Below, piece by piece: positions 234 through 31,319 of a stretch of 32,235 nucleotides of DNA; positions within the stretch are counted from its first letter, which is position 1, and each line of letters begins with the position of its first letter. The notes under the pieces were generated by a model, which was given only the letters and a program-made list of their open reading frames with translations, had not been told where the DNA came from and made no database searches. Location of the stretch: assembly GCA_040757115.1 (NCBI GenBank), contig JBFLYA010000016.1, positions 1 to 32,235 on the forward strand. Reading direction: 5' to 3'. Position numbers and translations under genes: made by a program. This stretch comes from a bacterium (GTDB lineage: Bacteria; UBA9089; CG2-30-40-21; SBAY01).

Positions 234-283
234 GTTTTATTTTTAATCTTTTTTTGCCACAGAGGCACAGAGTGCACAGAGGA

Positions 284-647
284 TTATTTATAAAATTAAT
301 CACTAAACCTACTTTCTTCCCGGTGAGTTTTAAGTAAGTAATTGTTGTCTCCATAGTGCCCTTAATAATCTTCTCTGTAACCACATTTATCTTTTCGTAA
401 GCGTTCAGGTGGTGTAACAAAAGGAGATGTGGAGATTAAGGAGATAGGGAGATATTATTAAAAAAATTGAAATTAATAGAAACTAATAGAAATTTATGGA
501 AATTTGTTGTTTCCCACAATCAATTTCTACCTATTTCTATAAATTTCAATCTATTTCTATTATCTTATCTCCATATCACTCTTATCTCCTTATCCCCTTT
601 CTTACACTTTTGATATATAGCCTGAACGGTTACATCTTTTCTATCAT
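284..647 (-). pseudogene. internally deleted GxxExxY-family gene remnant
   Basis: Removing MITE 397-633 and one target copy gives MIEKINVVTEKIIKGTME joined to TTITYLKLTGKKVGLVINF, the typical N- and C-terminal segments of the family. Confidence 0.75.
397..633. mobile_element. 237-bp MITE with IS66-like GTAA ends and 8-bp TSD
   Basis: Ends gtaagcgttcagg / cctgaacggttac. Direct repeat atcttttc at 389-396 and 634-641. Near-identical copies at 8173-8407 and 32116-end. Contains two nested inverted repeat arrays. Confidence 0.92.
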
Positions 648-677
648 TTTCTCTCTGTGTCCTCTGTGTCTCTGTGG

Positions 678-1070
678 CTAATCTTTTTTTTCACATAGTT
701 CAACTTTTTCCATTGCTTGTTTTTGCCAGTCTTCGTGAGGGGTATAAAAGCTACGGATGGCGTAAATTCCATGAACTATTTCACCGTAAGTATCCTTTGC
801 TTCTTTAAACTGACCATCTTTTTCATACATCTGACCTATTTCAAATATTCGCTCTTTTGCCTTTTTCACCCATTTTGAACCCGGGGTATAAAATCTAATG
901 GTTGAGCCATACCAGACAACGGCCATCGCATAATTTTTTCCCTTGTATTCTTTTTCTCCTTCATAAAATGCCTCTTTTGCCCGATGTAATGTCTCTAACC
1001 AGACCATTGTAAAGGCAATTACTATTACTCCTAAAACAGTTAAGATAATCTTTAATGGTTTATTCTTCAT
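678..1070 (-). CDS. hypothetical membrane-anchored TPR-like helical protein
   Basis: 130-aa ORF with GGAGG RBS, an N-terminal TM helix and a TPR-like A/Y/G helix pattern. Confidence 0.75.
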   Translation of the reverse strand: MKNKPLKIILTVLGVIVIAFTMVWLETLHRAKEAFYEGEKEYKGKNYAMAVVWYGSTIRFYTPGSKWVKKAKERIFEIGQMYEKDGQFKEAKDTYGEIVHGIYAIRSFYTPHEDWQKQAMEKVELCEKKD

Positions 1071-1425
1071 TTTTTAAACCTCCTCTGAAATGATAGAATT
1101 CGACCCCGCTGGCTTTATCCGTCATTCGCTGTAACGATTGGGGTAGATATTAATTTATTTTTTCGCCCAAAGCTTCAATATCGGCTAAATCCTTATGACG
1201 GTATAATGCCTTTTTGTTTATAATAAACTCTTTGCGTCCAATAAAATAAACAGGAAGATTACCATATTCTCCCTTTTCTCTACCAACAAATGCAGTATGC
1301 CAATCAATGCCTGAGATAGAGGTAATAATATCAATTCTTACCGGTGGCACCCCCAGTTGAACAACTTTATGTTCAACTGCAAAATCTTCGACAGAAAGTC
1401 TAAGTGAACCAAAACCAAAATCTTT

Positions 1426-1787
1426 CGACCTGTGAAATAGGTCAACGAGGGAAAAACAAAATTATACTCCACTGCTTGGTGTAAGAAAAGGAGATAGGGA
1501 GATTAAGGAGATAAGGGGATATTATTCTAATTCCACTCTTCTAAAATCTGCCTTTTCTTTAGCAAAGTTTACAAGAATAGCCACCTTTACACCTGCAGCT
1601 TTTAAATCGGTAAATACTCTCCAGAAAACCTGGCCCCAGTGTCTGGTGTACCTTGATAATACATTGAATTATTATCTCAGCAAGTAGATTTTCTTGATAT
1701 TCTTCTCTGATATCTCCATATCCCCTTTATCCCCTTATCCCCCTTCTTATACTAACTACGATCAAAATATTCCTATTTCACAGGTCG
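1426..1787. mobile_element. 362-bp MITE with perfect 16-bp TIR CGACCTGTGAAATAGG and 8-bp TSD
   Basis: TIRs at 1426-1441 and 1772-1787. aaatcttt at 1418-1425 and 1788-1795. Contains the GGAGAT-arm cassette 1479-1752. Confidence 0.92.
1522..1719 (-). pseudogene. internally deleted, frameshifted GxxExxY gene remnant
   Basis: IIIQCIIKVHQTLGPGFLESIY followed in another frame by KAAGVKVAILVNFAKEKADFRRVELE*. Confidence 0.85.
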
Positions 1788-3677: not shown

Positions 3678-3732
3678 GTAACCGTTCACTGCTCTTCACC
3701 GCAGAGACACAGAGACGCAGAGAAAAAATTAA
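3678..3732. mobile_element. orphan GTAA-MITE end (truncated)
   Basis: gtaaccgttcac..cgcagagacacagagacgcagagaaaaaattaa equals the reverse complement of the 4392-4436 end, with a 10-nt insertion. Confidence 0.75.
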
Positions 3733-4185
3733 GTAACTATTCAGCCACTGATTGACACGGAGTAGCACGGAAATATAGCACTTATTAATCGAAATTTGAC
3801 ATAGATATGGCTATGAAATTCCAAATCACAAATTCCAAATTCCAAACAAATTCGAATGACCAAAATTCAAAACATTACCCCCATAGTTTGTATTTAGGAT
3901 TTGAAATTTGGTGTTTATTTGAGATTTGGTGCTTGGGATTTGGGATTTTTTTTACTTATCCACTCTGAGTAAAGTTTTGACTAATAACTGCTATAGTCAG
4001 AAGACAGAACTCAGAGGACAGATGAGAAAGGGGGAAACGGAGAAAGGGAGAAACGGAGAAGGAGAGGAGAGACGAGGCACTATACCTGAATTTTCAGCCC
4101 TCAGCCTAATTACGGACACAGAAAACGGACACGGATTACGAATTTTCAGTGTTTCATCTGTGTCCATCAGTGGCTGAATAGTTAC
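3733..4185. mobile_element. GTAA-ended MITE with perfect 20-bp TIR, containing nested elements
   Basis: gtaactattcagccactgat / atcagtggctgaatagttac. No intact TSD visible. Confidence 0.85.
3774..3995. mobile_element. TATAGC-ended MITE (possibly TA-targeting, IS630-like) enclosing an empty heptamer-arm cassette
   Basis: tatagcacttattaatcgaaattt / aaagttttgactaataactgctata form an imperfect TIR. Inner aaattcc-type repeats (3816-) face gggattt-type repeats (-3948). Confidence 0.7.
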
Positions 4186-4192
4186 ATTTCTT

Positions 4193-4436
4193 GTAACCGT
4201 TCAGGTGGAAATTTACCGCAGAGACGCAGAGGAACAGAGAAATAAATCAGATAACAGAAAAGATTATTGAGGTAATCATTGTCATACATAGGACATCAAA
4301 ACCAAATTATTAATCAATCATGAGATGTCGGGCCTCAAAAGCTTGCTCTGATGAAAATCAGGAATGGAATTCTGCGTATGGTAAATAGTTTTTAATTTTT
4401 TCTCTGCGTCTCTGTGTCTCTGCGGTGAACGGTTAC
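4193..4436. mobile_element. 244-bp GTAA-MITE with 8-bp TSD carrying an ACCGCAGAG-arm cassette
   Basis: gtaaccgttca / tgaacggttac. catttctt at 4185-4192 and 4437-4444. Arms span 4215-4426. Confidence 0.9.
4239..4395 (+). pseudogene. degraded GxxExxY gene remnant
   Basis: EINQITEKIIEVIIVIHRT ... KIRNGILRMVNSF*, resembling the family N- and C-termini. Confidence 0.7.
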
Positions 4437-4447
4437 CATTTCTTGTT

Positions 4448-6131: not shown

Positions 6132-6319
6132 GTAACTATTCACCACGAAGAGCACGAAGGGCAGGGAGATGTTACAGAACAAATCTCTTTATGCCTTCTT
6201 TCAATCTTTCCACGTGAATTCAAACAAACCCGGCTCAAGAGTTCGATGCACCGCTATAGTGCCTCCAATGACTCTAATTTATCAAATTTCACTTCGTGTC
6301 CTTCGTGGTGAATAGTTAC
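6132..6319. mobile_element. 188-bp GTAA-ended element with CACGAAG arms
   Basis: Perfect 19-bp TIR gtaactattcaccacgaag / cttcgtggtgaatagttac. No TSD seen. Confidence 0.85.
6172..6292 (-). pseudogene. internally deleted GxxExxY gene remnant
   Basis: MKFDKL / RVIGGTIAVHRTLEPGLFE / VERLKEGIKRFVL* in shifting frames. Confidence 0.8.
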
Positions 6320-6602: not shown

Positions 6603-7065
6603 AAGTAGAGAGTAGAAAGTAGAGAGTAGAGAGATTATTCCCATTTCGCAATTAGTGAATGAAGCATTGCTCTAATCTCATTTAAAACTTGTAGTCTCTT
6701 CTCTATTATTTTTTCAGGCAACAACTTTCTTAACCTCCTATATCTACCCCTACTTTCTCCTACTGAACCTTTAGACATTCTAAAGAAATTCTTAATTTCT
6801 TTTCCCGACTTTCGTTCATATCCTTCTTCCATATTAGCACAGATAGAATCTAAACTTCTCAATTGATTCGATGCTAATATCCTACCTGCAAAACTCTTTT
6901 GAAGCACAGGTAAATCTTCTTCTAAAAAATCTTCAAATAGTCTAACTGCTTTTTGATAAACTTCAAAGTCCTCTACACTCTTTATTGGTTTTCTCTCCAT
7001 TCTCTCTTCTCTCTTCTCTTTTCTCTTTTCTCTCTACTCTCTACTCTCTACTCTCTACTCTCTAC
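6603..7065. mobile_element. heptamer-arm cassette (AGAGAGT)n...(ACTCTCT)n enclosing an intact four-helix-bundle gene
   Basis: Arms 6603-6634 and 7001-7065 directly abut the gene stop and start. Confidence 0.85.
6635..7000 (-). CDS. four helix bundle protein (23S rRNA IVS-protein / TIGR02436-like)
   Basis: EDFEVYQKA, QLRSLDSICANMEEGYER, FFRMSKGSVGE motifs. Confidence 0.9.
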   Translation of the reverse strand: MERKPIKSVEDFEVYQKAVRLFEDFLEEDLPVLQKSFAGRILASNQLRSLDSICANMEEGYERKSGKEIKNFFRMSKGSVGESRGRYRRLRKLLPEKIIEKRLQVLNEIRAMLHSLIAKWE

Positions 7066-8156: not shown

Positions 8157-8451
8157 GCCACAGAGACTTTTTGTAAACATTCAGGTGGTGTAACAAAAGG
8201 AGATGTGGAGATTAAGGAGATAGGGAGATATTATTAAAAAATTGAAATTAGTAGAAACTAATAGAAATTATGGAAATTTGTTGTTTCCCACAATCAATTT
8301 CTACCTATTTCTATAAATTTCAATCTATTTCTATTATCTTATCTCCATATCACTCTTATCTCCTTATCCCCTTTCTTACACTTTTGATATATAGCCTGAA
8401 CGGTTACGACTTTTTATTATTTCTTTGTGAACTCTGTGCCTCTGTGGCTAA
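8157..8451. mobile_element. empty GCCACAGAG-arm cassette between dsrA and dsrB, interrupted by a MITE
   Basis: gccacagag ... ctctgtgcctctgtggctaa. Confidence 0.75.
8173..8407. mobile_element. 235-bp copy of the GTAA-MITE with 8-bp TSD
   Basis: Near-identical to 397-633. gacttttt at 8165-8172 and 8408-8415. Confidence 0.92.
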
Positions 8452-9625: not shown

Positions 9626-9882
9626 TTTTTTCATCCTCCTTTTTTTTGCAGTAATGTTAAAAATTAACCACACAGAACCCAGCGCAGCATAGCCACAACC
9701 AAAAAAGGCACAACCTCACGGTTATAAAGAGGTCTATCGCTTTAACCACACCAAGGTATGTATTCCTCGTAAGTGTTCAGATAATAGGGTGTTTTGGTGA
9801 TCTGGTGTTTGGTGTCTTCAGGCACATAGATACTCAGCCCGCCTCATTGGTTACAAAACTTTCCTAAAAAACAAGATCTGGC

Positions 9883-9924
9883 GGTGGTGTCTGAAAATTC
9901 TTTCATGTTTTATTTAACACCACC
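9883..9924. repeat. 42-bp mini element with GGTGGTGT / ACACCACC ends
   Basis: ggtggtgtctgaaaat also begins 27485-27672. Inverted ends. Confidence 0.6.
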
Positions 9925-9942
9925 TCACATCTCAAATTCCAG

Positions 9943-14577: not shown

Positions 14578-14739
14578 TTTTTATCATCCCCCTTTTAACT
14601 TATTTAAACTTTCTGCAAAAACTCTTTATTTCATCCTAAGTTCTTTGACTATCTTTAGTTAATTATTTTATACAACTCTTGATAAACCCCAATTATTTTC
14701 TTCATCCAAACAAATTTTTAACTCATGATATAAAAGGAA

Positions 14740-16929: not shown

Positions 16930-16989
16930 GACAAAAACCATCTTAAATTGTCAAAGAGCAAAGTTGTAAAGAGGTCTGCATCAAAATTT

Positions 16990-17073
16990 GTAACTGTTCA
17001 CCGCAGAGACACAGAGACGCACAGATATTATTATTCTCCTGGTTTTCTCTGTGTATTTCTGCGTCTCTGCGGT
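16990..17073. mobile_element. one GTAA end plus an empty ACCGCAGAG-arm cassette
   Basis: gtaactgttcaccgcagagacacagagacgca ... tctgcgtctctgcggt. Confidence 0.75.
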
Positions 17074-17117
17074 TCACTTTCTTATCCCTAATAGTTCCAA
17101 AAACAATTACTCATCCT

Positions 17118-18440: not shown

Positions 18441-18481
18441 ACCTTATACCTCCTAAAGTTTTTTCAACAGGTTGGATGATT

Positions 18482-20394: not shown

Positions 20395-20579
20395 TCTCCT
20401 GAAAATCGGGACTCGGGACTCGGGGTTCGGGACTCGGGAAGGCTGGTAGCCGCACGACCCATGCTCTGCATGGGTACCCCGAGCCTGCGTTGCTCGACTT
20501 CAGCATCCCCGCCCGCATCCTTTCTTTATTTTTTATCTTCCTTTGTGCCCACTCACCGTGGACATGTTCGTTTCTCCTG
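20395..20579. mobile_element. CCTGAAAAT-type unit at the dsrO RBS
   Basis: Flanked by tctcctg at 20395-20401 and 20573-20579. Ends in the conserved hairpin site 20528-20579. Contains (CGGGACT)n. Confidence 0.75.
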
Positions 20580-20602
20580 TCTCCTGTCTGTATCCTCCCT
20601 CT

Positions 20603-20995
20603 CTACTCTCTACTCTCCGTAATATGGCAATTCCAGCAATTCGGTTGGACATCAACATAATTATGACATCTATCACAAAAATCTGCTTTATTAGAATGAC
20701 ATTTCATACAGGTTTTCTGAAGACTTTTTTCGTATCTGACGCCATCAATAATTCCGACCTCTCTATTGCCCTGACGAATGACCGCCTCCCTCCATTCGTG
20801 AAGCAATTTCATATGTTCAGTCCTCATTACATCTTTTGGCTTGACACACTCTTTTTTAGACATTTTATTGATAACAGGCGTGTCAAGACCTGGTTCAGGA
20901 TTAGAAGATGCCTTCACCAGATTATAGAAGAATGGAAAACTTATTAATCCCACAAAAATAATCAAACCAGGAATTATTTTGCCTTTATCATACAT
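20603..20995 (-). CDS. dsrJ: DsrJ triheme cytochrome c
   Basis: MYDKGKIIPGL, MRTEHM.LL..WR..V.R, CMKCH, FCDRCH, CWNCH. Confidence 0.95.
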   Translation of the reverse strand: MYDKGKIIPGLIIFVGLISFPFFYNLVKASSNPEPGLDTPVINKMSKKECVKPKDVMRTEHMKLLHEWREAVIRQGNREVGIIDGVRYEKSLQKTCMKCHSNKADFCDRCHNYVDVQPNCWNCHITESRE

Positions 20996-21022
20996 CTTTA
21001 TACTCCTATGTTATTCAACTAT

Positions 21023-21406
21023 AAGACTTCTGTAAAACTAAGAAACTGTAGTTTTTAAGCGGGTATTTAAAACCTTTATTTTTATCAATTTCCTCCAAAA
21101 TTCAAAATGCAAAAAGCAAATATAAAAATTACATATCAAAATGTAAAATTATCTCTTTCCTTTCAGCGTTAAAATACTTGAAGCAAAGATATTACCACAT
21201 TCCTCCAACTTTTTGAGAAACACTATTCTTTGGCAACTTATCGATGAATTCTATAAGTCGCAGAGTATAGTTATCCACTCTTTTCTTGAAGTCCTTTTTG
21301 AAATTTGATTTGTAATTTTGCATTTTGATATTTATATTTGATATTTAATATTTGATATTTAATATTTATTTGTTGTCTCCCCCCAATCCTATTTTGCAGA
21401 ACCCTA
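21023..21406. mobile_element. MITE with imperfect TIR and ~20-bp target duplication (IS1182-like), carrying a heptamer-arm cassette
   Basis: tcctatgttattcaactata (21004-21023) vs tcctatgttatttagctata (21407-21426). Ends aagacttctgtaaaa / ttttgcagaacccta. Confidence 0.7.
21149..21323 (-). pseudogene. internally deleted four-helix-bundle gene remnant within CAAAATG-type arms (21095-21366)
   Basis: MQNYKSNFKKDFKKRVDNYTLRLIEFIDKLPKNSVSQK, then in a shifted frame LEECGNIFASSILTLKGKR*. Confidence 0.82.
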
Positions 21407-21413
21407 TCCTATG

Positions 21414-23021
21414 TTATTTAGCTATATTTGGCAGTTCTTCACCCCGCAAATTAGTGGTTCTTTCCTTTTCTCCTTTCATCACGAGTGCATTTGCCACTAA
21501 CTCAGTCACACCTGTTACATCCACACCCGGCACCCAGTAATTCATCAAAGGAGGCAGTGCGGCGCGGTCAATGGCACAGATACAGGCAAGCATATTTACG
21601 CCATATTGCTCCTGAACATACTTGACAGCCATTGCCCTGGGTAATCCACCCCTAAGCCGCAATTCCATATTCTCAGAGGCATTCAACCCTGAACCACTGC
21701 CACAACAAAATGTCTTTTCCCGAATGGTATCTTCAGGCATTTCATAGAAATGGGGACAGACATTTTTTATAATATAGCGTGGTTCTTCAAACATTCCCAT
21801 CCCGCGGGCAACATTACAGGAATCATGAAAGGTTACTTTTAAATGGTCATTTCGTTTTGGGTTAAGGTTAAGTTTTCCATGTTTAATTAAATCAGCGGTA
21901 AATTCTGAAATATGAATCATTTTTGTTGATTTGGCATTCTCAAATTTCGTGCCCGTGATGGGTGAAATAGGCACTTCAAGGAAATCTGCAGGTCCGTTCC
22001 AGGTATCCATATACTGATTTATCACTCGCCACATATGACCGCATTCGCCACCAATAATCCACTTAACACCTAACCTTTTTGCCTCAGCGTATATTTTAGT
22101 ATTAAGTCGTTTTGCCAGTTCCATCGAGGTAAAAAATCCAAAATTCCCACCTTCAGAGGCATAAGTGCTCCAGGTGTAATCGAGTCCGAGTTCGTGGAAT
22201 AGTATCAAATAGCCCATACAGGTATAGGTGCCCGGGTCAGCAAACAGGTCACCTGACGGTGTAACAAAGAGTATTTCTGCTCCTTTTCTATTGAAGGTTG
22301 GCGATACCCGCACACCTGTTTTTTCTTCTATTTCATCAAGCAGGAAATCAATGGAGTTTTTAATCGTATGCGGTTCAAGGCCTAAGTGATTTCCTTTCAT
22401 ATAACAGTTTGCGGCTGGACCGGCAATCCATTCTATATTTAACCCCAAAAGATTGAGCAGTTCGCGGGCAATCATCGTAATTTCAGCAGTATCAATGCCG
22501 TAGGGACAAAAAACAGAACAGCGGCGGCATTCAGAGCATTGATAGAAATAATACCACCATTCTTTGAGCACATCAAGAGTAAGTTTTCGCCCACCGGCTA
22601 ACTTTCCCAGTACCTTTCCTATATTTTTAAAATTTCCTCGATAAACTGACCGAAGTAATTCTGCTCGTAATACTGGCATATTTTTCGGGTCGCCTGTGCC
22701 AAGAAAATAATGACATTTATCCGCACAAGCACCACAGCGGACACAAATATCCATAAAAATCTTAAAAGACCGATATTTTTTCAGTCGCTCAGCCATCCCT
22801 TCTAAAACTATCTCCTGCCAGTTATGAGGAAGTTTCCAGTCCTCATCAAGCACAGACCATGTTCTTGGATTTGGGAAATCTACGGTTTGCAGGCTTTTCT
22901 CCTTTGCCCCATAGCAGAACATCCCTTCCTTCCTTTCAACCGGGAGATTCATCCATGATTTTTGTGGAGGTTTATAATTTATTTGAGATATTATTTCTTG
23001 AGGTTTTGGTTCTTTAGCCAT
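21414..23021 (-). CDS. dsrK: DsrK HdrD-like Fe-S protein
   Basis: CVRCGACADKCH, CSECRRCSVFCPYGID, GECGH, HDSCN, CCGSGSG. Start MAKEP follows AGGAG. Confidence 0.96.
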   Translation of the reverse strand: MAKEPKPQEIISQINYKPPQKSWMNLPVERKEGMFCYGAKEKSLQTVDFPNPRTWSVLDEDWKLPHNWQEIVLEGMAERLKKYRSFKIFMDICVRCGACADKCHYFLGTGDPKNMPVLRAELLRSVYRGNFKNIGKVLGKLAGGRKLTLDVLKEWWYYFYQCSECRRCSVFCPYGIDTAEITMIARELLNLLGLNIEWIAGPAANCYMKGNHLGLEPHTIKNSIDFLLDEIEEKTGVRVSPTFNRKGAEILFVTPSGDLFADPGTYTCMGYLILFHELGLDYTWSTYASEGGNFGFFTSMELAKRLNTKIYAEAKRLGVKWIIGGECGHMWRVINQYMDTWNGPADFLEVPISPITGTKFENAKSTKMIHISEFTADLIKHGKLNLNPKRNDHLKVTFHDSCNVARGMGMFEEPRYIIKNVCPHFYEMPEDTIREKTFCCGSGSGLNASENMELRLRGGLPRAMAVKYVQEQYGVNMLACICAIDRAALPPLMNYWVPGVDVTGVTELVANALVMKGEKERTTNLRGEELPNIAK

Positions 23022-23046
23022 ATTCACTCCTTTTGGAAGTATTTTT

Positions 23047-23125
23047 GCCACAGAGGCACAGAGTGCACAGAGGATTATTTATTTTCTATTATTTTCTCTC
23101 TGTGTCCTCTGTGTCTCTGTGGCTA
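23047..23125. mobile_element. empty GCCACAGAG-arm cassette between dsrM and dsrK
   Basis: Arms identical to 256-681 with the gene fully deleted. Confidence 0.88.
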
Positions 23126-24118
23126 ATCCTTTTCCACCGGGATACCCACCTGTTTCATTCTTTCGCGGTAGTGCTCTTCGTATTCTTCATAAGTATGAAC
23201 TTTTACTGGATAATTCCACGGATTAATATGTCTTTTCATCCGATTATTATTTGCCAGATTTCGAGTTGGACTCAGGAAAATTCCTCCCATATGCACCAGT
23301 TTGCTAAATGGGAAATATATCAACAAGATGCAAACTAAAAACAGGTGGATATAAAAGATGACATTCACATCCGCAGGAATTACCGGTTGAAATCTTAACA
23401 ATCCTAAGGTATATGCCTTTAAACTCACCACATCAACCTTCACAAAATACCTCATCAGAATACCTGAAATGGCTATGGCAATGATTAAAAGAAGAGGGAA
23501 GTAATCCGCAATAGGTAATGAGATGTAATAGACTTTAGGGCTTAATATTCTACGGAGTAAAAGAAACGATATTCCAGCCAAAAGTCCAACTCCGGATAAG
23601 AATACCACCGGTGAACCTATCTCCATAAATCCATCCAGCCTACAAATCAGACTGATACAAGAAGGCACTGGCTCAATAAATAACCGACAATGTCTAATGA
23701 CAACAATAAAAAAAGACCAATGAAAGATTAATGCCGCAAGCCAGAGTAATTTTTCTTCGAGATGAAGAAAGTAAGGACCCTGTTTTAATTGGGTTTGTGT
23801 ATTGCGGAAAAGTGAGCGAAAGAGAAGAATCTCTAAAACCATTCTTCCGATAGCCCCAATACCTGTTGCTGGATTTTCAAAACAGGCACTTTTAATCCAG
23901 GGAAGTGATTTTTGCTGTCCACAGGTCGTTGGTATGCGGAAAGGAACAGGAGATTGTGCCCATCGGACAATGCGCCAAAGGACACCAACAATAAAAATAA
24001 AAATAGCTAAATACGGAATGATAACTCCAAAAAGTAGATGCAGATTTGCAGTTTCTATTCCCAGATATGCCAGTAAAACTAATATTATCACGGCTAATAA
24101 CGGTAATAAAACTTTCAT
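23123..24118 (-). CDS. dsrM: DsrM NarI-like membrane cytochrome b
   Basis: SPVPFRIPTTCGQQKSLPWIK, FHWSF...RH, YFPFSKLVH...SPTRN. ATGA overlap with dsrT. Confidence 0.96.
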   Translation of the reverse strand: MKVLLPLLAVIILVLLAYLGIETANLHLLFGVIIPYLAIFIFIVGVLWRIVRWAQSPVPFRIPTTCGQQKSLPWIKSACFENPATGIGAIGRMVLEILLFRSLFRNTQTQLKQGPYFLHLEEKLLWLAALIFHWSFFIVVIRHCRLFIEPVPSCISLICRLDGFMEIGSPVVFLSGVGLLAGISFLLLRRILSPKVYYISLPIADYFPLLLIIAIAISGILMRYFVKVDVVSLKAYTLGLLRFQPVIPADVNVIFYIHLFLVCILLIYFPFSKLVHMGGIFLSPTRNLANNNRMKRHINPWNYPVKVHTYEEYEEHYRERMKQVGIPVEKD

Positions 24119-24561
24119 TTGACACCCCACTTCATCATTTCATTTGTCTGAAGTTGATAAATCTTTTCTCTGCATTTCATAAATATATCAAACGAAATCG
24201 TTGCTAATCTATCTATTTTAGATTCAAGGGCTAATAATTCATTATATTCACTGCCAATTTTCTCTCTAATTGCCTGTTTTAGAACGAAAATAAAGGATAT
24301 AGCTTGTGAGGGAGCAACTCCCTGCACTGCTTTAATTTTGATTATATCCTCTAAAAATTTATCTACACCCTTGTTTTGAATAATTCCATCAAAAATGCCT
24401 TCAATCCCTTTTCTGATTGTCCATCCTACTGGATTAGCGAATTGGTTTTTCTCTGTTTTTACAAACTCTGCCGTCTGTTGTGGATAGGTATTAAGTATCA
24501 AATCAAACCATCTGTTGATAATAGATTCCTTTTTTCTTAATAAGACATCATTTAATTCCAT
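24115..24561 (-). CDS. dsrT: DsrT (RsbRD N-terminal domain protein)
   Basis: RWFDLILNTYP..QFANPVG..IKAVQ..PSQAISFIFVLK..FDIFMKCREKIYQL. Directly upstream of dsrM. Confidence 0.9.
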   Translation of the reverse strand: MELNDVLLRKKESIINRWFDLILNTYPQQTAEFVKTEKNQFANPVGWTIRKGIEGIFDGIIQNKGVDKFLEDIIKIKAVQGVAPSQAISFIFVLKQAIREKIGSEYNELLALESKIDRLATISFDIFMKCREKIYQLQTNEMMKWGVK

Positions 24562-24581: not shown

Positions 24582-24638
24582 ATTGCGGATTGTGAATCTG
24601 TATTTTCAGTCCGCAATCCGCAATCCACAATCTGCGAT
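24582..24638. repeat. empty heptamer inverted-arm cassette (TGCGGAT / ATCCGCA)
   Basis: attgcggattgtgaat ... tccgcaatccgcaatccacaatctgcg. Confidence 0.7.
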
Positions 24639-24649
24639 TAATTATACAC

Positions 24650-25145
24650 GTAACCGTTCAGGGCTATACATTAGAAGTGTAAACAAGGAGAAATGGGGAA
24701 AAGGGAGAATTGGAGAAATGGCTCAAACTTTTTCTTGCTCCACCCTTCGGACATCAATCCTGGAGTCTGCGAAATTTACCAGTAACCCTATTTCTTTATC
24801 CACTGCTCTAAGGTATGATCTAACCTGATTATAATACTTCCCACTTATCTCCTCAACAGTTTTAATCTCTACCACAATCTCATCTTCAACAAAAAGATCA
24901 AGTCTATGAACCCCAACCTCGACACCTTGATAGAATATCTTGACTTCTTTTTCTGATTCAAAGATGATGTTCTGTCTTGCAAACTCAACCTTCAAGGCAT
25001 TGTGATAGATGCTCTCCAGAAAACCAGGTCCTAACTTTTTATGGACATTAATACAGGCATTAATAATCCTATCAGTTAACTCTTCTTTTCTCCACTTCTC
25101 CATCTTCTCCCTTTCTCCTCATTTTTATCCTACCTGAACCCTTAC
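24650..25145. mobile_element. 496-bp GTAA-MITE with 8-bp TSD carrying an intact GxxExxY gene in GGAGAA arms
   Basis: gtaaccgttcagg / cctgaacccttac. ttatacac at 24642-24649 and 25146-25153. Confidence 0.93.
24723..25103 (-). CDS. GxxExxY protein (PD-(D/E)XK nuclease-like)
   Basis: VHKKLGPGFLESIY, RLDLFVEDEIVVEIK, QVRSYL...GLLVNF. Confidence 0.93.
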   Translation of the reverse strand: MEKWRKEELTDRIINACINVHKKLGPGFLESIYHNALKVEFARQNIIFESEKEVKIFYQGVEVGVHRLDLFVEDEIVVEIKTVEEISGKYYNQVRSYLRAVDKEIGLLVNFADSRIDVRRVEQEKV

Positions 25146-25481
25146 TTATACACAGCCAGTTGGCTTGGGCAGACCAGCAATTTTACAGGCTTGTTTTGCT
25201 GGACCTGCTGGGAAAAGTTCATAAAGATATTTGTTATTTCCTTTTTCAGGACCAAACATCTTTGCCATCTCTTTTATCAAAATCTTAATCATTGGCGCAA
25301 TTTGATATTCCTTGTAATAATTTCTTAAGAAATTCACCACTTCCCACCGGCGTTCATCCAGCTCAATATCCTCAGTTTTAGCAATGTGCACCGCGACTTC
25401 CTCAGTCCAATCATCTAAATTTTGGAGATACCCTTCTTCATCCGTCTCATAAGTTTTTCCTTTAAATTCAAAACCTGGCAT
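25146..25481 (-). CDS. dsrC: DsrC sulfur carrier
   Basis: DEEGYL..W, YLYELFPAGPAKQACKIAGLPKPTGCV with both C-terminal Cys (CX10C). Confidence 0.97.
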   Translation of the reverse strand: MPGFEFKGKTYETDEEGYLQNLDDWTEEVAVHIAKTEDIELDERRWEVVNFLRNYYKEYQIAPMIKILIKEMAKMFGPEKGNNKYLYELFPAGPAKQACKIAGLPKPTGCV

Positions 25482-25545
25482 AATTTTACACCTCCTCTTT
25501 GTTTGGCAATTTATCTCTTATTAAAAGAGTTGTCATTATTGTAAA

Positions 25546-25947
25546 GTAGAGAGTAGAGAGTAGAGAGTAGAGAGTAGAGAGAAAATTTTTCCTCCACCCT
25601 GTTTTTTCCCTATTTTCATTCTCATTTGTGAACCCACGGTTCATAGGCGTTTCCCCTGAAAATCGGGACTCGGGACTCGGGGTTCGGGAAGAAAGAAACT
25701 CTCAGCAATTCCCCCTTAATAAAGGGGGTTAGGGGGTTGTCCTTCTCCCATTTTCATTGCCCTTTGTGAGCCTTGGCTCATGTCCGTTTCCTCTGAAAAT
25801 AGCGAATTAGTGAATTAGTATAGTATCCACAGATTCGTATCTTATGGTTTAGAACAGATATTCCCCCTTAATAAAGGGGGTTAGGGGGTTGTTCTTCCAT
25901 TATTTTCATCCCCCTTTGTGAGCCGCAGGCTCATGAGCGTTTCTCCT
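25546..25947. repeat. tandem array of three CCTGAAAAT-type units
   Basis: Conserved site attttcat..tttgtg-hairpin-cat..cgtttc.cctgaaaat at 25612-25663, 25750-25800 and 25902-25947, with variable 86- and 101-nt fillers. Confidence 0.85.
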
Positions 25948-26011
25948 TGAACCTGACAACCATTGCCTGTTGTTTCACTTTAGATGGCTAAATAGTTATA
26001 AAAGAAATACA

Positions 26012-27484: not shown

Positions 27485-27672
27485 GGTGGTGTCTGAAAAT
27501 AACTCTAATAGTGAAATCTATGCAGATTTGGTGTCCAAAAGGGAGTAACCGTTCAGGGCTATACATTAGAAGTGTAAACAAGGAGAAATGGGGAAAAGGG
27601 AGAATTGGAGAAATGGCTCAAACTTTTTCTTGCCCTACCCTTCGGACATCAATCCTAGATTAAGACACCACC
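27485..27672. mobile_element. GGTGGTGTCT-ended element containing a truncated copy (27545-27656) of MITE 24650
   Basis: ggtggtgtct / agacaccacc ends. 27545-27656 is nearly identical to 24650-24761, including the GxxExxY 3' end. Confidence 0.75.
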
Positions 27673-27745
27673 GAAAAAACAGGTGGAGGAAAGATTTTCT
27701 CTCTACTCTCTACTTTCTACTCTCTACTTCCTAATTTTCAGGAGA
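27673..27745 (-). repeat. truncated CCTGAAAAT-type unit with (AGAGAGT)n, an inverted copy of 25546-25608
   Basis: Minus strand tctcctgaaaattaggaagtagagag..aaaatctttcctccacctgttttttc. Confidence 0.8.
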
Positions 27746-28621: not shown

Positions 28622-28623
28622 TT

Positions 28624-30279
28624 TTACATCCCCTGATAAAATAATTTTAATCCTTTTCCCATAGCTGGCAGCACCTGTTTCTTTCGCGAAAAAATACCTT
28701 TCAAGAATAACTCTTCATCTATTCCTTCAAAGGCTAATTCGATAATTTTAGGATTTCCAGCAAAGATTAAATTACTTCCTTCTTTTAAAATATCTGTAAT
28801 TAACATCATCGCTAATTCTAATTTATGTTGTTCTTTAAGTATATTTAACTCTTTCAAAAACAAATCTTTCAACTTAAGTAAATTATAAGAATCAACCGTT
28901 TCAAATTGCCCGATACCGATATTTTTGTTCTCTATTTTATATTCTTTGTAATTAGCCAGAATTATTTCTTTAACAGATTTCTTTTCAATTATGGACGAAT
29001 GGCGAAACATATCAAGTCCAAATTCATTTATATCCACATTTGCCGCTAAGGCAAGTTTTTTGGCAATAGTTATATCTTTTTGGGTAGTAGTTGTTGATTT
29101 AAAAATAAGTGTATCAGATAAAATCCCGGCAAGGAGTATGCCGGCTATTTTTTTAGAAGGACTAATAAAATGTTGTTCATATCTTGCCGCAATTAATGTG
29201 GCTGTAGAGCCCACAGGTTCACCCGTAAATAAGATAGGCATTCTACTCTGAATATCTCCAAGGCGGTGATGGTCAATAATCTCAATAATCTCTGCCTCTT
29301 CAATCCCTTCTGCAGATTGAAATATCTCATTATGGTCAACCAATATTACTTTTCTACCCATAGCCTGTAGCAGGTCTCTTGCGGTAATTATTCCTATTAC
29401 CTTACCCAACTCATCCACCACAGGCATAGAGCGGGCAGGGGAATTAATTATCATCCCTTTTGCTTCATTAAGTCGTGTCTCTGGGGTTAAGGAAGGAATA
29501 TTTGTATTCATCAGTGTTTCAACCCCGGCTGAAAGTTTTGTTAGTCTAACTGAGGTAATCGTGTCATAAGGAGAAATAATGAGTGTTGTGTTTGATTTTG
29601 TCGCCAGGTCAACTACTTCTTGAGCAGGAGAAAATCCTCCCGTAATAATAAGGCATCGGACACCAACATTAAGAATAGCCATTTGGGCATCTTCACGATT
29701 GCCAATTAAAATAATATTATCGAATCCAAAGTAACTTTTAATTTTATTAACGATTGAGTCCACCTTCATTGCCCCAATAATCAGATTACCATTTGGGAAA
29801 GCAGTATCTTTTTCACCAACAATTAAAGTTCCATTTAAACATCGAATGATATTTTGAACAGTCGTATTTACCAATCTATCTGTTTCAATATTTGTTTCTG
29901 CAATGAGGAGCGAGGCAATTTTTTTAATATCAATCGTGCCCTTAAGCTCTGAATTTTTTACAATTGGCACCATTAAAAATCCTTTTTCTTTCATTATATC
30001 CAGGACATTTTTAATTGGTGAATCAATATTGACAAGGATAGGAGAGGGAGTCATTACATCTTCTACTCTTAGATAAAGGTCTCTAATGACCAGTGGCGGC
30101 TCAACTTCAAAATAATCAAGAACAAATCTGGTTTCATCATTTATTTCACCAGCGCTGACGGGTTTAACATTTTTGTCACCTAAAGTTTTCCTTAACTCAG
30201 CATAGGCAATAGCCGAAACAACAGAATCTGTGTCTGGACTTTTATGTCCGATAATTAAAATTAAATCTTGTTGTGGCAC
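28624..30279 (-). CDS. ppaC: family II Mn-dependent inorganic pyrophosphatase with CBS-DRTGG-CBS insert
   Basis: [37 protein letters not shown] and DRTGG segments. Confidence 0.95.
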
Positions 30280-30298
30280 ATTAAACTCCTTTTCAAAA

Positions 30299-30805
30299 TT
30301 AGAATTCCCGCAGGAAGATTAATTCATTTATAATTGAAGCAAATTGTCGTGGTAAAAAGGCTAATAGAATCTTGACCACCCAATATAAGTGGGGAATAAT
30401 TTGAGAGGAGTTAATTAACTTGTTGGCAAATGGCAATTTAGCTAAAATTATAACGATAATTACCGCGATTATCACTCCTCGAACAAAACCAAATGCTATC
30501 CCTCCAACCCTATCTAACCAGTTTAGCGATAATTTCTTTAATGTTTTTTGAAGAAAGACTCCAATAAGATTTATCAAGACACACACAATTAAAAATATAA
30601 GACCATAGGCAATTATATCTGCCCAAAAGGATGATTTGATAAATCGGATTAAAAACAGGGCTATTTTTGAATATAGTAGATTAGCCACTATAATCCCGGC
30701 TATTATCGAGAGCAGTGAGAATACTTCTTTTATCAGCCCTCTAAACAGACCAAAAACCATACTGATAATGATAATGACTAAAAAGAAAATATCTAATGGA
30801 TTCAT
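30299..30805 (-). CDS. cvpA: CvpA family membrane protein
   Basis: MNPLD...GLFRGLIKEVFSL...LDRVGGIAFGFVRG. Confidence 0.9.
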   Translation of the reverse strand: MNPLDIFFLVIIIISMVFGLFRGLIKEVFSLLSIIAGIIVANLLYSKIALFLIRFIKSSFWADIIAYGLIFLIVCVLINLIGVFLQKTLKKLSLNWLDRVGGIAFGFVRGVIIAVIIVIILAKLPFANKLINSSQIIPHLYWVVKILLAFLPRQFASIINELIFLREF

Positions 30806-31319
30806 TTCTCCTGTAAATAGCCGATGTCAGACGTAAGACAAGGCTTATTGCTTTTTCATAAATAGGTTCCTCTTTTGGGGAGAGCGATAGCAAGAAGAAC
30901 TTTAATGTAAATATCAAAATGCAAATATCAAAATTACAATGCAAAATGCAAAAATACTTGTAAATTAACAAAGTAGCTGGAGAATATTTTGATTTTTGAT
31001 TTGTAATTTTACATTTTGATGTTTGATTTTTAATTTATTTCCCCTGAAAATGTCCGTAAGTCATTGTAATTGCTTGAGTTACAAAATTACATTTTCATTG
31101 TCCTTTGTGAGTCGCAGACTCATGAGCGTTCCCCTGAAAATAGCCGTAAGAATAGAACACGGATGACACGGATTTAACGGATTTTCGCTGATTTTTTTCT
31201 CTTTTTTCTGTCTTCTGTCTTCTATCTTATATCCGCGAATATCCGCATTATCAGCGTCATCAGCGTGCTATTATTTTTCATCTTCCTTTGCTCCCTGTGG
31301 GCATATCCGTTTCTCCTGT
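30805..31319. mobile_element. array of CCTGAAAAT-type units at the cvpA RBS, with empty arm cassettes at 30905-31032 and 31155-31268
   Basis: tttctcctgt at 30805-30814 and 31310-31319. Conserved sites at 31091-31141 and 31273-31318. Unit starts at 30810 and 31043. Confidence 0.75.

What the first reader, a model, noticed from the sequence alone, without database searches (positions are those of the whole stretch)
256..31268. Family of inverted tandem-repeat-arm cassettes carrying GxxExxY or four-helix-bundle genes
Seen: about 15 loci have two inverted arms built from short tandem repeats. Two enclose an intact gene (four-helix 6603-7065; GxxExxY 24677-25130). Five enclose a deleted gene (256-681, 1479-1752, 4215-4426, 6142-6309, 21095-21366). 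Eight have no gene (412-607, 3816-3948, 8157-8451, 17000-17073, 23047-23125, 24582-24638, 30905-31032, 31155-31268). Arm sequences differ between types but the architecture is constant, and the arms abut or contain the gene start and stop. Known: GxxExxY is a PD-(D/E)XK-like family, the four-helix-bundle family is related to 23S IVS proteins and DGR Avd, and both lack assigned functions. Inference: these are minimal selfish units, a gene looped out on a long hairpin, that spread to operon junctions and decay to empty hairpins. I know of no described mechanism for them.
Basis: partly seen in the sequence, partly recalled or inferred. Interest (0 to 1): 0.9.

Follow-up and report, generated by a model that had tools for sequence, protein, structure and literature searches.

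The report
Hairpin-flanked mobile minigene cassettes
The sulfite-reductase gene cluster in this window is peppered with small mobile DNA cassettes, each a tiny gene or its remains held between two mirror-image arms of short repeats, and the same design turns up in distant bacteria where it seems never to have been described.

Summary
All 15 loci form long hairpins, most with arms of 7-10 nt tandem repeats. Two enclose intact genes (four-helix-bundle, 4HB; GxxExxY). Four enclose GxxExxY remnants, one marginally; the claimed remnant at 21095-21366 is unsupported.

Three near-identical copies lie at different sites. These are hallmarks of IS66-family transposition, so this class is non-autonomous MITE/mobile-insertion-cassette DNA, presumably moved in trans.

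The 4HB cassette has neither feature. Its architecture matches 23S rRNA intervening sequences (stem plus S23p/4HB ORF) but it sits between dsrB and dsrD.

Relatives show clean presence/absence: this gap is 479 nt here, 565 nt with an unrelated 4HB cassette in the closest relative, and -1 to 13 nt in eight others.

The design is cross-phylum. On plasmids, 12 of 21 4HB/GxxExxY genes carry inverted arms versus 4 of 87 control ORFs, and a Xanthomonas supplement places a heptamer array over the Xcc0516 start.

How the repeat-less cassettes move, and whether RNase III excises them, is inferred only.

The parts
253..681 (.). Hairpin A1: CACAGAGG/TCTCTGTG arms (253-281, 653-681) enclosing a GxxExxY C-terminal remnant (within 214-435, - strand) and the nested element B1. 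The right end supplies the stop codon of ORF 678-1070.
397..633 (.). B1: 237-bp gene-less element. Ends GTAAGCGTTCAGG / CCTGAACGGTTAC. Two nested pairs of tandem arms (AAGGAGAT, AATAGAAATT). 8-bp duplication ATCTTTTC at 389-396 and 634-641.
1426..1787 (.). Element H: 16-nt perfect terminal repeat CGACCTGTGAAATAGG. 8-bp duplication AAATCTTT at 1418-1425 and 1788-1795. Inside it are AGATAAGG/TATCCCCT arms (1484-1521, 1711-1745) around an internally deleted GxxExxY gene. It splits a nucleotidyltransferase-like gene (ORFs 1778-1972 and 1150-1350) that is adjacent and co-oriented in L011.
3678..4436 (.). Composite nest. Solo left end 3678-3732, with a 38-nt arm 100% complementary to 4392-4429. Element D 3733-4185 (ends GTAACTATTCAGC), which contains hairpin 3816-3948 (AAATTCC/ATTTGGG) and array 4024-4060. 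Element C' 4193-4436 (ends GTAACCGTTCAGG/GGTGAACGGTTAC; duplication CATTTCTT at 4185-4192 and 4437-4444), with a marginal GxxExxY N-terminal remnant on the + strand.
6132..6319 (.). Element E between dsrD and the gltD-like gene: ends GTAACTATTCACC, CACGAAGAG arms, weak GxxExxY N-terminal remnant at 6204-6278(-). No target duplication.
6604..7065 (-). 4HB cassette between dsrB and dsrD: AGTAGAG/CTCTCTA heptamer arms (31 nt, 97%) around the four-helix-bundle gene 6635-7000(-). The arm starts at the dsrB stop codon. No GTAA terminal repeat and no target duplication.
8157..8451 (.). Between dsrA and dsrB: degenerate CACAGAG-type outer arms enclosing B2 (8173-8407), a near-identical copy of B1. Duplication GACTTTTT at 8165-8172 and 8408-8415.
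16990..17082 (.). Element F: left end GTAACTGTTCACC, arms 17000-17025/17048-17073 (26 nt, 85%), right terminal repeat truncated, no gene.
21095..21368 (.). AT-rich hairpin between dsrK and dsrJ (CAAAATG / TTTAATA arrays, arms 55 nt at 75%). No detectable gene remnant.
23044..23126 (.). Hairpin A2 between dsrM and dsrK. Its arms are identical to those of A1 and enclose no gene. The dsrM stop codon lies in its right end.
24583..24638 (.). Short hairpin with TCCGCAA-type arms, next to the GxxExxY cassette.
24650..25145 (-). GxxExxY cassette (496 bp): ends GTAACCGTTCAGG / CCTGAACCCTTAC, GGAGAAAT/TTCTCCAC arms, intact gene 24723-25103(-). Perfect 8-bp duplication TTATACAC at 24642-24649 and 25146-25153, the latter containing the dsrC stop codon. 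The 5' arm overlaps the gene's start and first codons.
27545..27656 (.). Truncated second copy of the GxxExxY cassette's left end. It starts exactly at the terminal repeat and has 2 mismatches over about 112 nt.
30903..31268 (.). Two gene-less hairpins: 30903-31037 (arms 51 nt at 73%, AT-rich tandem units) and 31155-31268 (arms pair, tandem structure unclear).
32116..32235 (.). B3: third copy of element B, cut by the window end.

Best explanation
The window holds two overlapping layers of selfish DNA built on one design: a promoter-less minigene between inverted arrays of short tandem repeats.

Layer 1 is shown. The GxxExxY cassette and its gene-less derivatives (elements B, C', D, E and F) end in IS66-type terminal inverted repeats. 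Four carry perfect 8-bp target-site duplications. They are non-autonomous MITE / mobile-insertion-cassette elements. I infer that an IS66-family DDE transposase encoded elsewhere in the genome cuts and pastes them. They lose the gene by internal deletion and then persist as 90-240 bp hairpin MITEs, which insert into one another.

Layer 2 has a shown architecture and an inferred mechanism. The repeat-armed minigene module itself (4HB or GxxExxY) occurs without terminal repeats or target duplications, wedged between the stop codon of one operon gene and the ribosome-binding site or start codon of the next. It is usually co-oriented with them, so host read-through transcribes it. It is the protein-operon counterpart of the 23S rRNA intervening sequence. 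I infer that in the transcript the purine-rich 5' arm and pyrimidine-rich 3' arm pair into a 25-50 bp stem that loops out the minigene, and that RNase III cuts this stem as it cuts rRNA intervening sequences. That would separate the flanking cistrons unharmed and free the minigene's ribosome site, which makes insertion into essential operons tolerable.

The cargo proteins are a minimal Cas4/RecB-like nuclease and an Avd/S23p-like four-helix bundle. I infer that they promote the element's spread or retention. How the module without terminal repeats inserts is not known.
For: Terminal repeats:
- GTAACNRTTCA occurs 13 times, against 0.11 expected.
- The stricter 13-mer class occurs 14 times in the window, 3 in L002, 5 in L003, 1 in L087 and 2 in L103. 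It is absent from the other 98 of the 103 loci held at that point.

Target duplications:
- Perfect 8-bp duplications flank B1, B2, C' and the GxxExxY cassette and element H.
- Two more flank the MITE in L002 and, if its mutated last base is counted as the element's end, the one in L087.
- The chance of one 8/8 match is about 2.7e-5.

Copies: B1, B2 and B3 are near-identical, and identity begins and ends at the terminal repeats. There is also a truncated second GxxExxY copy.

IS66 link:
- Passages in PMC11946415 say IS66 has 20-30 bp repeats starting GTAAGCG and 8-bp direct repeats.
- PMC12888890 gives GTAAGCGTCCGG... and GTAACCGTCCGGGCA.
- An annotated IS66 transposase in Calothrix (L103, 36222-37688) is bounded by GTAAGGATTCAGG on both sides.

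Decay: GxxExxY remnants.

Presence/absence:
- The dsrB>dsrD gap is 479 nt here, 565 in L001, 410 in L002, 71 in L003 and -1 to 13 in the other 8 of the 12 sequences compared.
- The L001 cassette at that junction carries a 4HB only 32% identical over 74 aa, although DsrB is 88% identical.

Cross-phylum:
- Inverted arms score >=12 in 12 of 21 plasmid 4HB/GxxExxY genes against 4 of 87 control ORFs (Fisher p 1.3e-7). The four control hits are another 4HB gene, two IS transposases and a TnpB.
- Filled and empty sites in two Nostoc plasmids place the insert exactly between stop and ATG.
- In 50 kb of pNPUN01, 8 of 9 heptamer arrays form 4 hairpins, and one of these encloses the only 4HB gene.
- A Xanthomonas supplement puts a GGGAATC array over the Xcc0516 start, 6 nt from bccP.

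Orientation: 17 of 20 cassettes are co-oriented with their neighbours (p 0.0013).

Arm polarity: the 5' arm is purine-rich in 44 of 49 hairpins.

Intervening-sequence precedent: a 428-nt element with an S23p ORF and a 28-bp stem that RNase III cuts (PMC4990558 passages).
Against: - No IS66 transposase gene lies in the window or in any of the 80 dsr loci (tblastn). Trans-mobilisation is therefore inferred.
- D, E, F and the outer C ends lack target duplications.
- Element H has a different terminal repeat around the same kind of arms. The arms-plus-gene module is thus separable from the IS66 shell, and the relation between the layers is unclear.
- Hairpin energy shows no bias towards the transcribed strand. 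The sense strand is lower in 16 hairpins and the antisense strand in 17, of 34 examined; G-U pairs number 57 against 64. Selection on RNA is therefore not shown.
- Some plasmid cassettes have same-orientation arrays (L091, L093), a long direct repeat (L083) or nothing (L090).
- No data on RNase III, transcripts or excision exist here.
- The cargo proteins' roles are guesses.
Confidence: 0.6

Rival explanations
1. The cassettes are autonomous. The encoded protein is itself the mobility factor: the Cas4/RecB-like nuclease, or the Avd-like four-helix bundle working with a host reverse transcriptase. It would act on the hairpin that forms in single-stranded DNA or RNA and give insertion without target duplication. 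The IS66-type shell would then be a secondary capture.
For: - Two unrelated nucleic-acid-binding proteins recur as the only cargo.
- Both are highly conserved across phyla. GxxExxY homologs are 64-85% identical in the 30-sequence sample, with 2004 hits. 4HB homologs are 64-85% identical and carry source names from Omnitrophota and WOR-3.
- The nuclease residues D69 and E79-x-K81 and the GxxExxY motif are kept.
- Plasmid 4HB cassettes show no target duplication.
- The same arms-plus-gene module occurs inside two different terminal repeats.
- Ralph and McClelland's idea that the intervening-sequence ORF serves mobility is quoted in PMC4990558.
Against: - A 121-126 aa protein has no known strand-transfer activity.
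- The gene-less copies B1-B3 spread with 8-bp duplications that point to a DDE transposase.
- PMC4990558 reports that Coxiella S23p appears not to be made in vivo (abstract).
- No reverse transcriptase lies in the window.
Confidence: 0.2
2. The repeat-armed hairpins without terminal repeats are REPIN-like. They would be non-autonomous hairpins moved as single-stranded DNA by a trans-acting HUH/tyrosine transposase (RAYT or IS200/IS605-type), with the minigenes as passengers.
For: - They are intergenic hairpin doublets with no target duplication, and many are empty.
- They nest within one another's loops.
- The features of REPINs and RAYTs are recalled here, not read.
Against: - Arm sequences differ almost from site to site, even at the same junction in close relatives. 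REPINs of one genome share one recognised sequence.
- No RAYT or TnpA gene was seen in the window.
Confidence: 0.1
3. The hairpins are host regulatory devices, not selfish DNA. They would be operon punctuation that sets mRNA processing, stability or translation, and the small genes would be regulated host genes.
For: - They sit at junctions of dsrA-B-D, dsrM-K-J-O, groES-groEL in Xanthomonas, nrd, par and cas operons.
- The purine-rich 5' arms look like ribosome-binding sites and are paired in the stem.
Against: - Close and distant relatives run the same operons with gaps of about -68 to 13 nt.
- Target duplications, identical dispersed copies, a gene-disrupting insertion and decayed genes mark transposition.
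- Only 1 of the 35 terminator-like sites found lies in a cassette (17059-17072, + strand), and the long cassette stems are not among them.
- Rfam has no match at its gathering scores.
Confidence: 0.07
4. The arrays are plain microsatellite-like slippage products that happen to lie near small genes.
For: Heptamer arrays are over-represented in several bacterial groups, and polymerase slippage has been proposed as the cause (PMC4692102 passages).
Against: - There are 9 inverted and 0 direct pairs in the window.
- Inverted 12-mer seed pairs number 79 against 7.7 in shuffles.
- The association with two gene families is specific.
- There are exact terminal repeats and duplications.
Confidence: 0.03

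Closest known systems
23S (and 16S) rRNA intervening sequences carrying an S23p / four-helix-bundle ORF (Coxiella, Leptospira, Brucella; PMC4990558 passages; CPR rRNA inserts, bioRxiv 10.1101/2024.02.27.582315 passages)
   Same: A roughly 430-460 nt element with terminal inverted repeats forming a stem of about 28-31 bp. The loop holds a ~120-aa 4HB ORF and is transcribed as part of the host transcript. Distribution is sporadic and horizontal, and the elements are regarded as selfish. The window's 4HB model matches the same structures (Xcc0516 2gsc, TM 0.83; BT_0352 2rld).
   Different: The window's cassette sits between protein-coding genes, not in an rRNA helix. Its stems are built from tandem heptamers. 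The alternative cargo is a GxxExxY nuclease. Many copies are gene-less. A subset has IS66-type ends and 8-bp duplications. RNase III cleavage is untested here.
IS66-family-derived MITEs and mobile insertion cassettes (non-autonomous elements with IS ends, with or without a passenger gene)
   Same: Terminal repeats start GTAAGCG/GTAACCG. Target duplications are 8 bp. No transposase is encoded. Sizes run from about 90 to 500 bp. Multiple near-identical copies exist, and one carries a passenger gene.
   Different: Between the ends lie long inverted arrays of tandem 7-10 nt units. The passenger is always the same small nuclease family. No cognate transposase has been seen. The MIC concept is known to me from search listings and from recall.
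Heptamer tandem repeats of cyanobacteria (STRR; recalled) and the G-rich GGGAATC / GGGGAYT repeats of Xanthomonas and Nostoc (Rehm et al. 2015, PMC4692102)
   Same: Intergenic 7-nt tandem arrays, mostly between co-oriented genes. That paper reports 70-75 'convergent' inverted pairs per Xanthomonas genome, able to form stem-loops. Their positions differ between close relatives and their function is unknown.
   Different: That work found no link to mobile elements and none to 4HB/GxxExxY genes. Its own supplement nevertheless lists an array over the start of Xcc0516.
REPINs / REP elements with RAYT transposases (recalled, not read)
   Same: Extragenic hairpin doublets that are non-autonomous, abundant and lack target duplications.
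   Different: REPINs share one conserved sequence per genome, carry no gene and are not built from tandem units.
Integron gene cassettes (recalled)
   Same: A promoter-less single ORF with an imperfect inverted repeat that folds in single-stranded DNA, expressed by read-through.
   Different: Here there is no integrase, no attI array and no attC core sites. The arms flank the ORF on both sides.

Membership tests
IS66-family non-autonomous element (MITE / mobile insertion cassette) | Terminal inverted repeats beginning GTAAGCG (or GTAACCG) | tested here: met
   GTAA(C/G)CGTTCAGG ends on B1-B3, C' and the GxxExxY cassette; GTAACT(A/G)TTCA on D, E and F. Compared with the literature repeats and with the ends of an annotated IS66 transposase, GTAAGGATTCAGG.
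IS66-family non-autonomous element (MITE / mobile insertion cassette) | 8-bp direct target duplication | tested here: met
   Perfect 8/8 in 4 of 8 bounded pairs with the GTAA-type ends (B1, B2, C', GxxExxY cassette). Absent in D, E, F and the outer C pair.
IS66-family non-autonomous element (MITE / mobile insertion cassette) | No transposase inside; several copies whose identity stops at the ends | tested here: met
   NCBIfam finds only GxxExxY or nothing inside. B1, B2 and B3 align from GTAA to TTAC only.
IS66-family non-autonomous element (MITE / mobile insertion cassette) | A cognate IS66-family transposase in the same genome | not testable with these tools
   None in the window or in L001-L080 (tblastn).
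rRNA intervening sequence (IVS) | Inserted in a helix of 23S or 16S rRNA | tested here: not met
   The cassettes lie between or within protein genes. Rfam finds no rRNA in the window.
rRNA intervening sequence (IVS) | Terminal complementary sequences forming a long stem around an S23p/4HB ORF | tested here: met
   6604-6634/7029-7059, 31 nt at 97%, around the TIGR02436 gene. The Coxiella stem is 28 bp.
rRNA intervening sequence (IVS) | Excised from the transcript by RNase III | not testable with these tools
   No transcript data. Strand-asymmetry test neutral: sense lower in 16, antisense lower in 17, of 34 hairpins.
TIGR02436 / PF05635 four-helix-bundle (S23p, Avd-like) protein | Profile match above cut-off, four-helix fold, R-x3-S-x3-N-x2-E motif | tested here: met
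   53.1 bits against a cut-off of 24. AF2 pLDDT 92.4 with four helices. Foldseek gives 2gsc at TM 0.83, 2rld at 0.68-0.70 and Avd 4dwl at 0.71. R48 is near-invariant and S52, N56 and E59 are invariant. The motif is as quoted in PMC3936711.
TIGR04256 / PF13366 GxxExxY (PD-(D/E)XK) protein | Profile match above cut-off, GxxExxY motif, restriction-endonuclease-like fold with D...ExK | tested here: met
   129.3 bits against a cut-off of 35. G27, E30, Y33, E79 and K81 are invariant and D69 near-invariant. pLDDT 94.7. The best folds are Cas4 SSO0001 4ic1 (E 1.6e-4, TM 0.61), MGME1, Cas4 Pcal_0546 and lambda exonuclease. That these residues are catalytic is inferred. Nuclease activity was not tested.
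REPIN / REP-RAYT system | One conserved palindromic REP sequence shared by the copies of a genome | tested here: not met
   Arm units differ between loci: CACAGAGG, AAGGAGAT, AGTAGAG, CAAAATG, GGAGAAAT and others.
Intrinsic transcription terminator | Short GC-rich stem, small loop, then a T-run | tested here: not met
   Only 1 of the 35 terminator-like sites lies in a cassette (17059-17072, + strand), and the long cassette stems are not among them.

The most novel reading that the evidence does not exclude
Intervening sequences are not an rRNA curiosity. They would be one face of a cross-phylum class of promoter-less, hairpin-bounded minigene cassettes, carrying an Avd/S23p-like four-helix bundle or a minimal Cas4-like nuclease. 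These cassettes insert exactly between stop and start codons of operons by a structure-specific route that makes no target duplication and has not yet been described. On this reading, the long-unexplained heptamer tandem arrays of cyanobacteria (STRR) and the G-rich inverted heptamer pairs of Xanthomonas are the arms and footprints of these cassettes.
Probability: 0.35. Interest if true: 0.85.

Novelty: new variant of a known kind. Interest (0 to 1): 0.78.

Why it matters
If the reading holds, four things follow.

1. Two very large 'function unknown' families get a context. GxxExxY/PF13366 gave at least 2004 hits in one capped search, and 4HB/PF05635 is also large. Both would be cargo of selfish cassettes. 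This explains why they turn up inside cas, nrd, par, acc and dsr operons and have been read as members of those systems.

2. Three literatures that have not been joined would connect: rRNA intervening sequences, cyanobacterial and Xanthomonas heptamer repeats, and MITEs.

3. It warns annotators. Arms supply stop codons, start codons and N-terminal residues, and they inflate intergenic spacers in marker operons such as dsrAB.

4. It offers a natural system in which an element can sit inside an essential operon without polar damage. That is testable with an RNase III mutant and is of interest for synthetic operon design.

Tried and rejected
- **RNA-level selection.** I compared fold energy and G-U counts of 34 hairpins on the sense and antisense strands. 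There was no bias: sense lower in 16, antisense lower in 17; G-U pairs 57 against 64.
- **Rfam, gathering scores.** 0 matches.
- **Terminator and promoter scans.** Only 1 of the 35 terminator-like sites lies in a cassette; the long stems are not among them.
- **Sequence search of PDB.** Nothing for GxxExxY and only noise for the window 4HB. The fold search was needed instead.
- **4HB remnant in 21095-21366.** Not found by NCBIfam or by my own HMM.
- **Target duplications for the 4HB cassettes.** None in the window, in L001, or at the filled and empty Nostoc sites.
- **IS66 transposase in the window or the 80 dsr loci.** None.
- **First flank statistic (RNA duplex energy).** It timed out and then gave a noisy control, with median -33.7 and minimum -109. 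I replaced it with an ungapped inverted-match score.
- **Uninformative literature searches.** Heptanucleotide and STRR terms returned exercise trials. 'Short tandemly repeated repetitive' with ORF and stem-loop returned unrelated papers. One search was rejected for an over-long term.
- **Integron reading.** Considered and dropped: no integrase, no array.
- **Defence-island reading.** Considered and dropped: no PADLOC scan was run and nothing in the context pointed to it.
- **Complex prediction, the protein-atlas search and the search of protein representatives.** Not used; no claim here depends on them.

Full report
**Setting.** The window (about 37% G+C) carries the dissimilatory sulfite-reduction genes of an uncultured bacterium, all on the minus strand. 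Listed by ascending coordinate, they are a gltD-like oxidoreductase, dsrD, a four-helix-bundle (4HB) gene, dsrB, dsrA, three type-IX-secretion-related genes, dsrP, dsrO, dsrJ, dsrK, dsrM, an unknown ORF, a GxxExxY gene, dsrC, cobB and glyQ. A scan of genome contigs with DsrB returned 80 loci. The best is 88% identical (L001, titled a Nitrospirota MAG), followed by L011 at 80%, L002 at 78%, and L003 and L004 at 77%. The source genome itself is therefore not in that collection.

- TRF lists dozens of 7-10 nt arrays, nearly all intergenic.
- The repeat finder lists inverted arms at the stated places, and folding of 17 intergenic stretches shows the long stems.
- In a TRF-based count, the window has 46 arrays of period 6-10. 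Nine pairs within 800 nt have reverse-complementary units and none have the same unit in direct orientation.
- Inverted 12-mer seed pairs within 700 nt number 79, against a mean of 7.7 (maximum 24) in 50 dinucleotide shuffles.
- The two intact genes are confirmed: TIGR02436 at 53.1 bits and TIGR04256 at 129.3 bits.
- Of the five 'deleted genes', GxxExxY remnants are supported in 256-681, 1479-1752 and 6142-6309, and marginally in 4215-4426.
- Nothing is detectable in 21095-21366.

Outside many arms lies a shared terminal inverted repeat. GTAACNRTTCA occurs 13 times, against 0.11 expected. It bounds these elements:
- B1 (397-633), B2 (8173-8407) and B3 (32116 to the window end);
- C' (4193-4436), D (3733-4185), E (6132-6319) and F (16990 onward);
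- the GxxExxY cassette (24650-25145).

Four of these have perfect 8-bp direct repeats of the flanking DNA:
- ATCTTTTC (B1)
- GACTTTTT (B2)
- CATTTCTT (C')
- TTATACAC (GxxExxY cassette), which duplicates the dsrC stop codon.

A fifth element, H (1426-1787), has a different 16-nt terminal repeat and the duplication AAATCTTT. It splits a nucleotidyltransferase-like gene whose two halves are adjacent and co-oriented in L011. One 8/8 match has a chance of about 2.7e-5. B1, B2 and B3 are near-identical, and their similarity starts and stops exactly at the terminal repeats. A truncated second copy of the GxxExxY cassette begins exactly at its terminal repeat. These are the marks of cut-and-paste or copy-and-paste transposition.

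**Which transposon family?**
- Passages in PMC11946415 state that IS66 has 20-30 bp terminal repeats starting GTAAGCG and makes 8-bp direct repeats.
- PMC12888890 gives GTAAGCGTCCGG... and GTAACCGTCCGGGCA for Pseudomonas IS66 members, some of which carry passenger genes.
- By luck, a 50-kb stretch of a Calothrix plasmid fetched for another purpose holds an annotated IS66 transposase. It is bounded on both sides by GTAAGGATTCAGG. The right end of the GxxExxY cassette reads GTAAGGGTTCAGG.
- The same 13-mer class occurs in L002 (3 times), L003 (5), a Geminocystis plasmid (1) and that IS66 (2). It is absent from the other 98 of the 103 loci then held.
- The MITE in L002 has a perfect 8-bp duplication. 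So does the one in L087 if its mutated last base is counted as the element's end.

No IS66 transposase lies in the window or the 80 dsr loci. Mobilisation in trans is therefore an inference.

**Orthologous junctions.** Relatives share the order cobB-dsrC-dsrMKJOP-dsrAB-dsrD-gltD.

| Junction | Window | L001 | L002 | L003 | Others compared |
|---|---|---|---|---|---|
| dsrB>dsrD | 479 | 565 | 410 | 71 | -1 to 13 (8 loci) |
| dsrM>dsrK | 71 | 90 | not adjacent | 113 | -68 to -3 (4 loci) |
| dsrK>dsrJ | 418 | 76 | not adjacent | 111 | -28 to -8 (3 loci) |

L001 also has a 4HB cassette at dsrB>dsrD. Its arms are GGGATGA heptamers, and its protein is only 32% identical over 74 aa to the window's. 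The window's 4HB is 85% identical to proteins from other sources. These are independent insertions or replacements at one junction, not a fixed feature. Arrays and inverted pairs are confined to the window, L001, L002 and L003. The other 77 loci together have 2 inverted pairs.

**Beyond this lineage.**
- tblastn against plasmids found 5 records with GxxExxY genes and 33 with 4HB genes, the latter mostly cyanobacteria. I fetched all 5 and 16 of the 33.
- Flanks printed show inverted heptamer arrays around 4HB genes in Nostoc, Geminocystis and Calothrix. They also show inverted arrays around GxxExxY genes in Gemmatirosa (11-mers) and Bernardetia (CACAGAG, as in the window).
- With an ungapped inverted-match score of at least 12, 12 of 21 cassette genes are positive against 4 of 87 control ORFs from the same loci (Fisher p 1.3e-7). 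The four control hits are a second 4HB gene, two IS transposases and a TnpB.
- Exceptions are stated: same-orientation arrays (L091, L093), a roughly 50-nt direct repeat (L083), unclear (L082) and none (L090).
- Two syntenic Nostoc plasmids carry different 4HB cassettes at adjacent junctions of one operon. The empty sites read stop-3 nt-ATG, and the insert replaces those 3 nt with no duplication.
- In an unselected 50 kb of pNPUN01, 8 of 9 heptamer arrays form four hairpins. One encloses the only 4HB gene. One lies at the junction that holds an intact 4HB cassette in Nostoc C052.
- A second unselected 50 kb, from Calothrix, has one empty hairpin.
- Rehm et al. (PMC4692102) reported 70-75 'convergent' GGGAATC pairs per Xanthomonas genome, of unknown role and not linked to mobile elements. 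Their supplementary file 2 lists an array 6 nt from bccP that overlaps the start of Xcc0516, and an inverted pair between groES and groEL (passages). Xcc0516 is the protein whose structure best matches the window's 4HB.

**The cargo.**
- *GxxExxY.* Homologs are 64-85% identical in a 30-sequence sample, with 2004 hits in a capped search and source names that include Ca. Brocadia and Planctomycetota. The model has pLDDT 94.7. It best matches Cas4 SSO0001 (E 1.6e-4, TM 0.61), MGME1, another Cas4 and lambda exonuclease. G27, E30, Y33, E79 and K81 are invariant and D69 near-invariant.
- *4HB.* The model has pLDDT 92.4. It matches Xcc0516 (TM 0.83), BT_0352, and then DGR Avd.
Function remains untested.

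**Further regularities.**
- The 5' arm is purine-rich, with G exceeding C, in 44 of 49 hairpins from all sources. Not all are independent.
- Because the repeat is inverted, this holds on both strands. It places Shine-Dalgarno-like units (AAGGAGAT, GGAGAAAT, AGGTGAT) before the minigene.
- In the GxxExxY cassette the 5' arm runs into the start codon and the conserved MEKWRKEE codons.
- Cassettes are co-oriented with both neighbours in 14 of 18 annotated plasmid cases. Counting only cases whose two neighbours are themselves co-oriented, and adding the window's two cassettes and the L001 cassette, the figure is 17 of 20 (p 0.0013).

**Mechanism.**
- *Shown:* transposition of the class with terminal repeats, decay by internal deletion, nesting, lineage-restricted spread, and the cross-phylum arm-gene association.
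- *Inferred:* an IS66-family enzyme acting in trans.
- *Inferred from the intervening-sequence precedent* (a 428-nt element with an S23p ORF and a 28-bp stem, cut mid-stem by RNase III; PMC4990558 passages): the arms pair in the read-through transcript and RNase III cuts them. This would spare the neighbouring cistrons and release the minigene message.
- *Against an RNA-level reading:* hairpin energies and G-U pairs show no sense-strand bias.
- *Unknown:* how cassettes without terminal repeats reach a stop-start gap, why the units are seven long, and what the two proteins do.

**Novelty.** The searches below found no paper linking these genes to inverted tandem arms or to MITEs:
- GxxExxY (3 papers);
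- intervening sequence plus four-helix bundle;
- the family names and their accession numbers.

PMC3936711 noted 23S_rRNA_IVP genes inside cas operons and read them as Cas-associated. PMC3424549 lists PDDEXK_3 as unknown. The library lacks most subscription journals, and my knowledge of the STRR and REPIN literature is recalled. The claim 'not described' is limited accordingly.

**Unchecked.**
- The source genome: copy numbers, transposase, and rRNA intervening sequences.
- The metagenome and viral collections, which were closed.
- Chromosomes of Xanthomonas and Nostoc.
- The full supplementary tables of PMC4692102.
- Any transcript or biochemical data.

Noticed in passing
window 9674-18481: Relative to L001, where the dsrP>dsrA gap is 24 nt, the window has 8808 nt between dsrP and dsrA. 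This stretch holds a PorV-family gene, a 712-aa membrane/TPR protein and a 1544-aa protein with a PorZ-like C-terminal end.
   Followed up: partly
window 20603-24130 compared with L001 and L030: The operon is a mosaic. The window's DsrM, DsrK and DsrJ are only 41-45% identical to those of L001 but 62%, 81% and 50% identical to those of L030. DsrO, DsrP, DsrA, DsrB and DsrD are closest to L001 at 76-88%.
   Followed up: no
window 16022-16467, inside ORF 14740-16878(-): Four heptamer arrays (AGTAGTC, AGTTTTG x4.9 at 100%, ATGAGAG, TTCCCAC) lie within the ORF, which stays open across them. They are translated as short peptide repeats such as KTQNSKLKTQN. Whether homologs lack them was not checked.
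   Followed up: no
window 25545-25581 and 27699-27728: AGTAGAG x5.3 and CTCTCTA x4.3 arrays use the same unit as the 4HB cassette arms. They lie in inverted orientation 2.1 kb apart on either side of cobB. A further CTCTCTA array lies at 20599-20617.
   Followed up: no
window 25620-25960 (also 20406-20439 and 31100-31140): Another small repeat family: a GTGAGCC..GGCTCAT hairpin followed by CGTTTCCCCTGAAAAT and TCGGGAC heptamers, plus two CCCCCTTAATAAAGGGGG hairpins about 150 nt apart. The 22-nt motif search found 2 copies at up to 3 mismatches.
   Followed up: partly
L001 11064-11615: The 4HB gene of the closest relative is flanked by two complete local hairpins, which gives four arms of one heptamer family. 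Several alternative pairings are therefore possible.
   Followed up: no
L093 and L095 (Pseudanabaena and Anabaena plasmids): A 4HB gene sits between cas6 and cas4 of type I-D loci in two cyanobacterial orders. In L093 it is flanked by 16 and 10 copies of heptamers in the same orientation, not inverted.
   Followed up: partly
L002 13745-14083: A 189-bp MITE with IS66-type ends is inserted into the arm of another repeat-armed element, and its 8-bp duplication GAAATTAG resembles a unit of that arm. In L002 and L003 the arm units (TATCAGG, CGTCAGC) resemble the inner heptamer of the terminal repeat itself, which hints that arms grow by reiteration of the end.
   Followed up: partly
window 13369-13604: A 129-nt tandem repeat (1.8 copies, 75% matches) lies inside the 1544-aa secreted-protein gene.
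   Followed up: no
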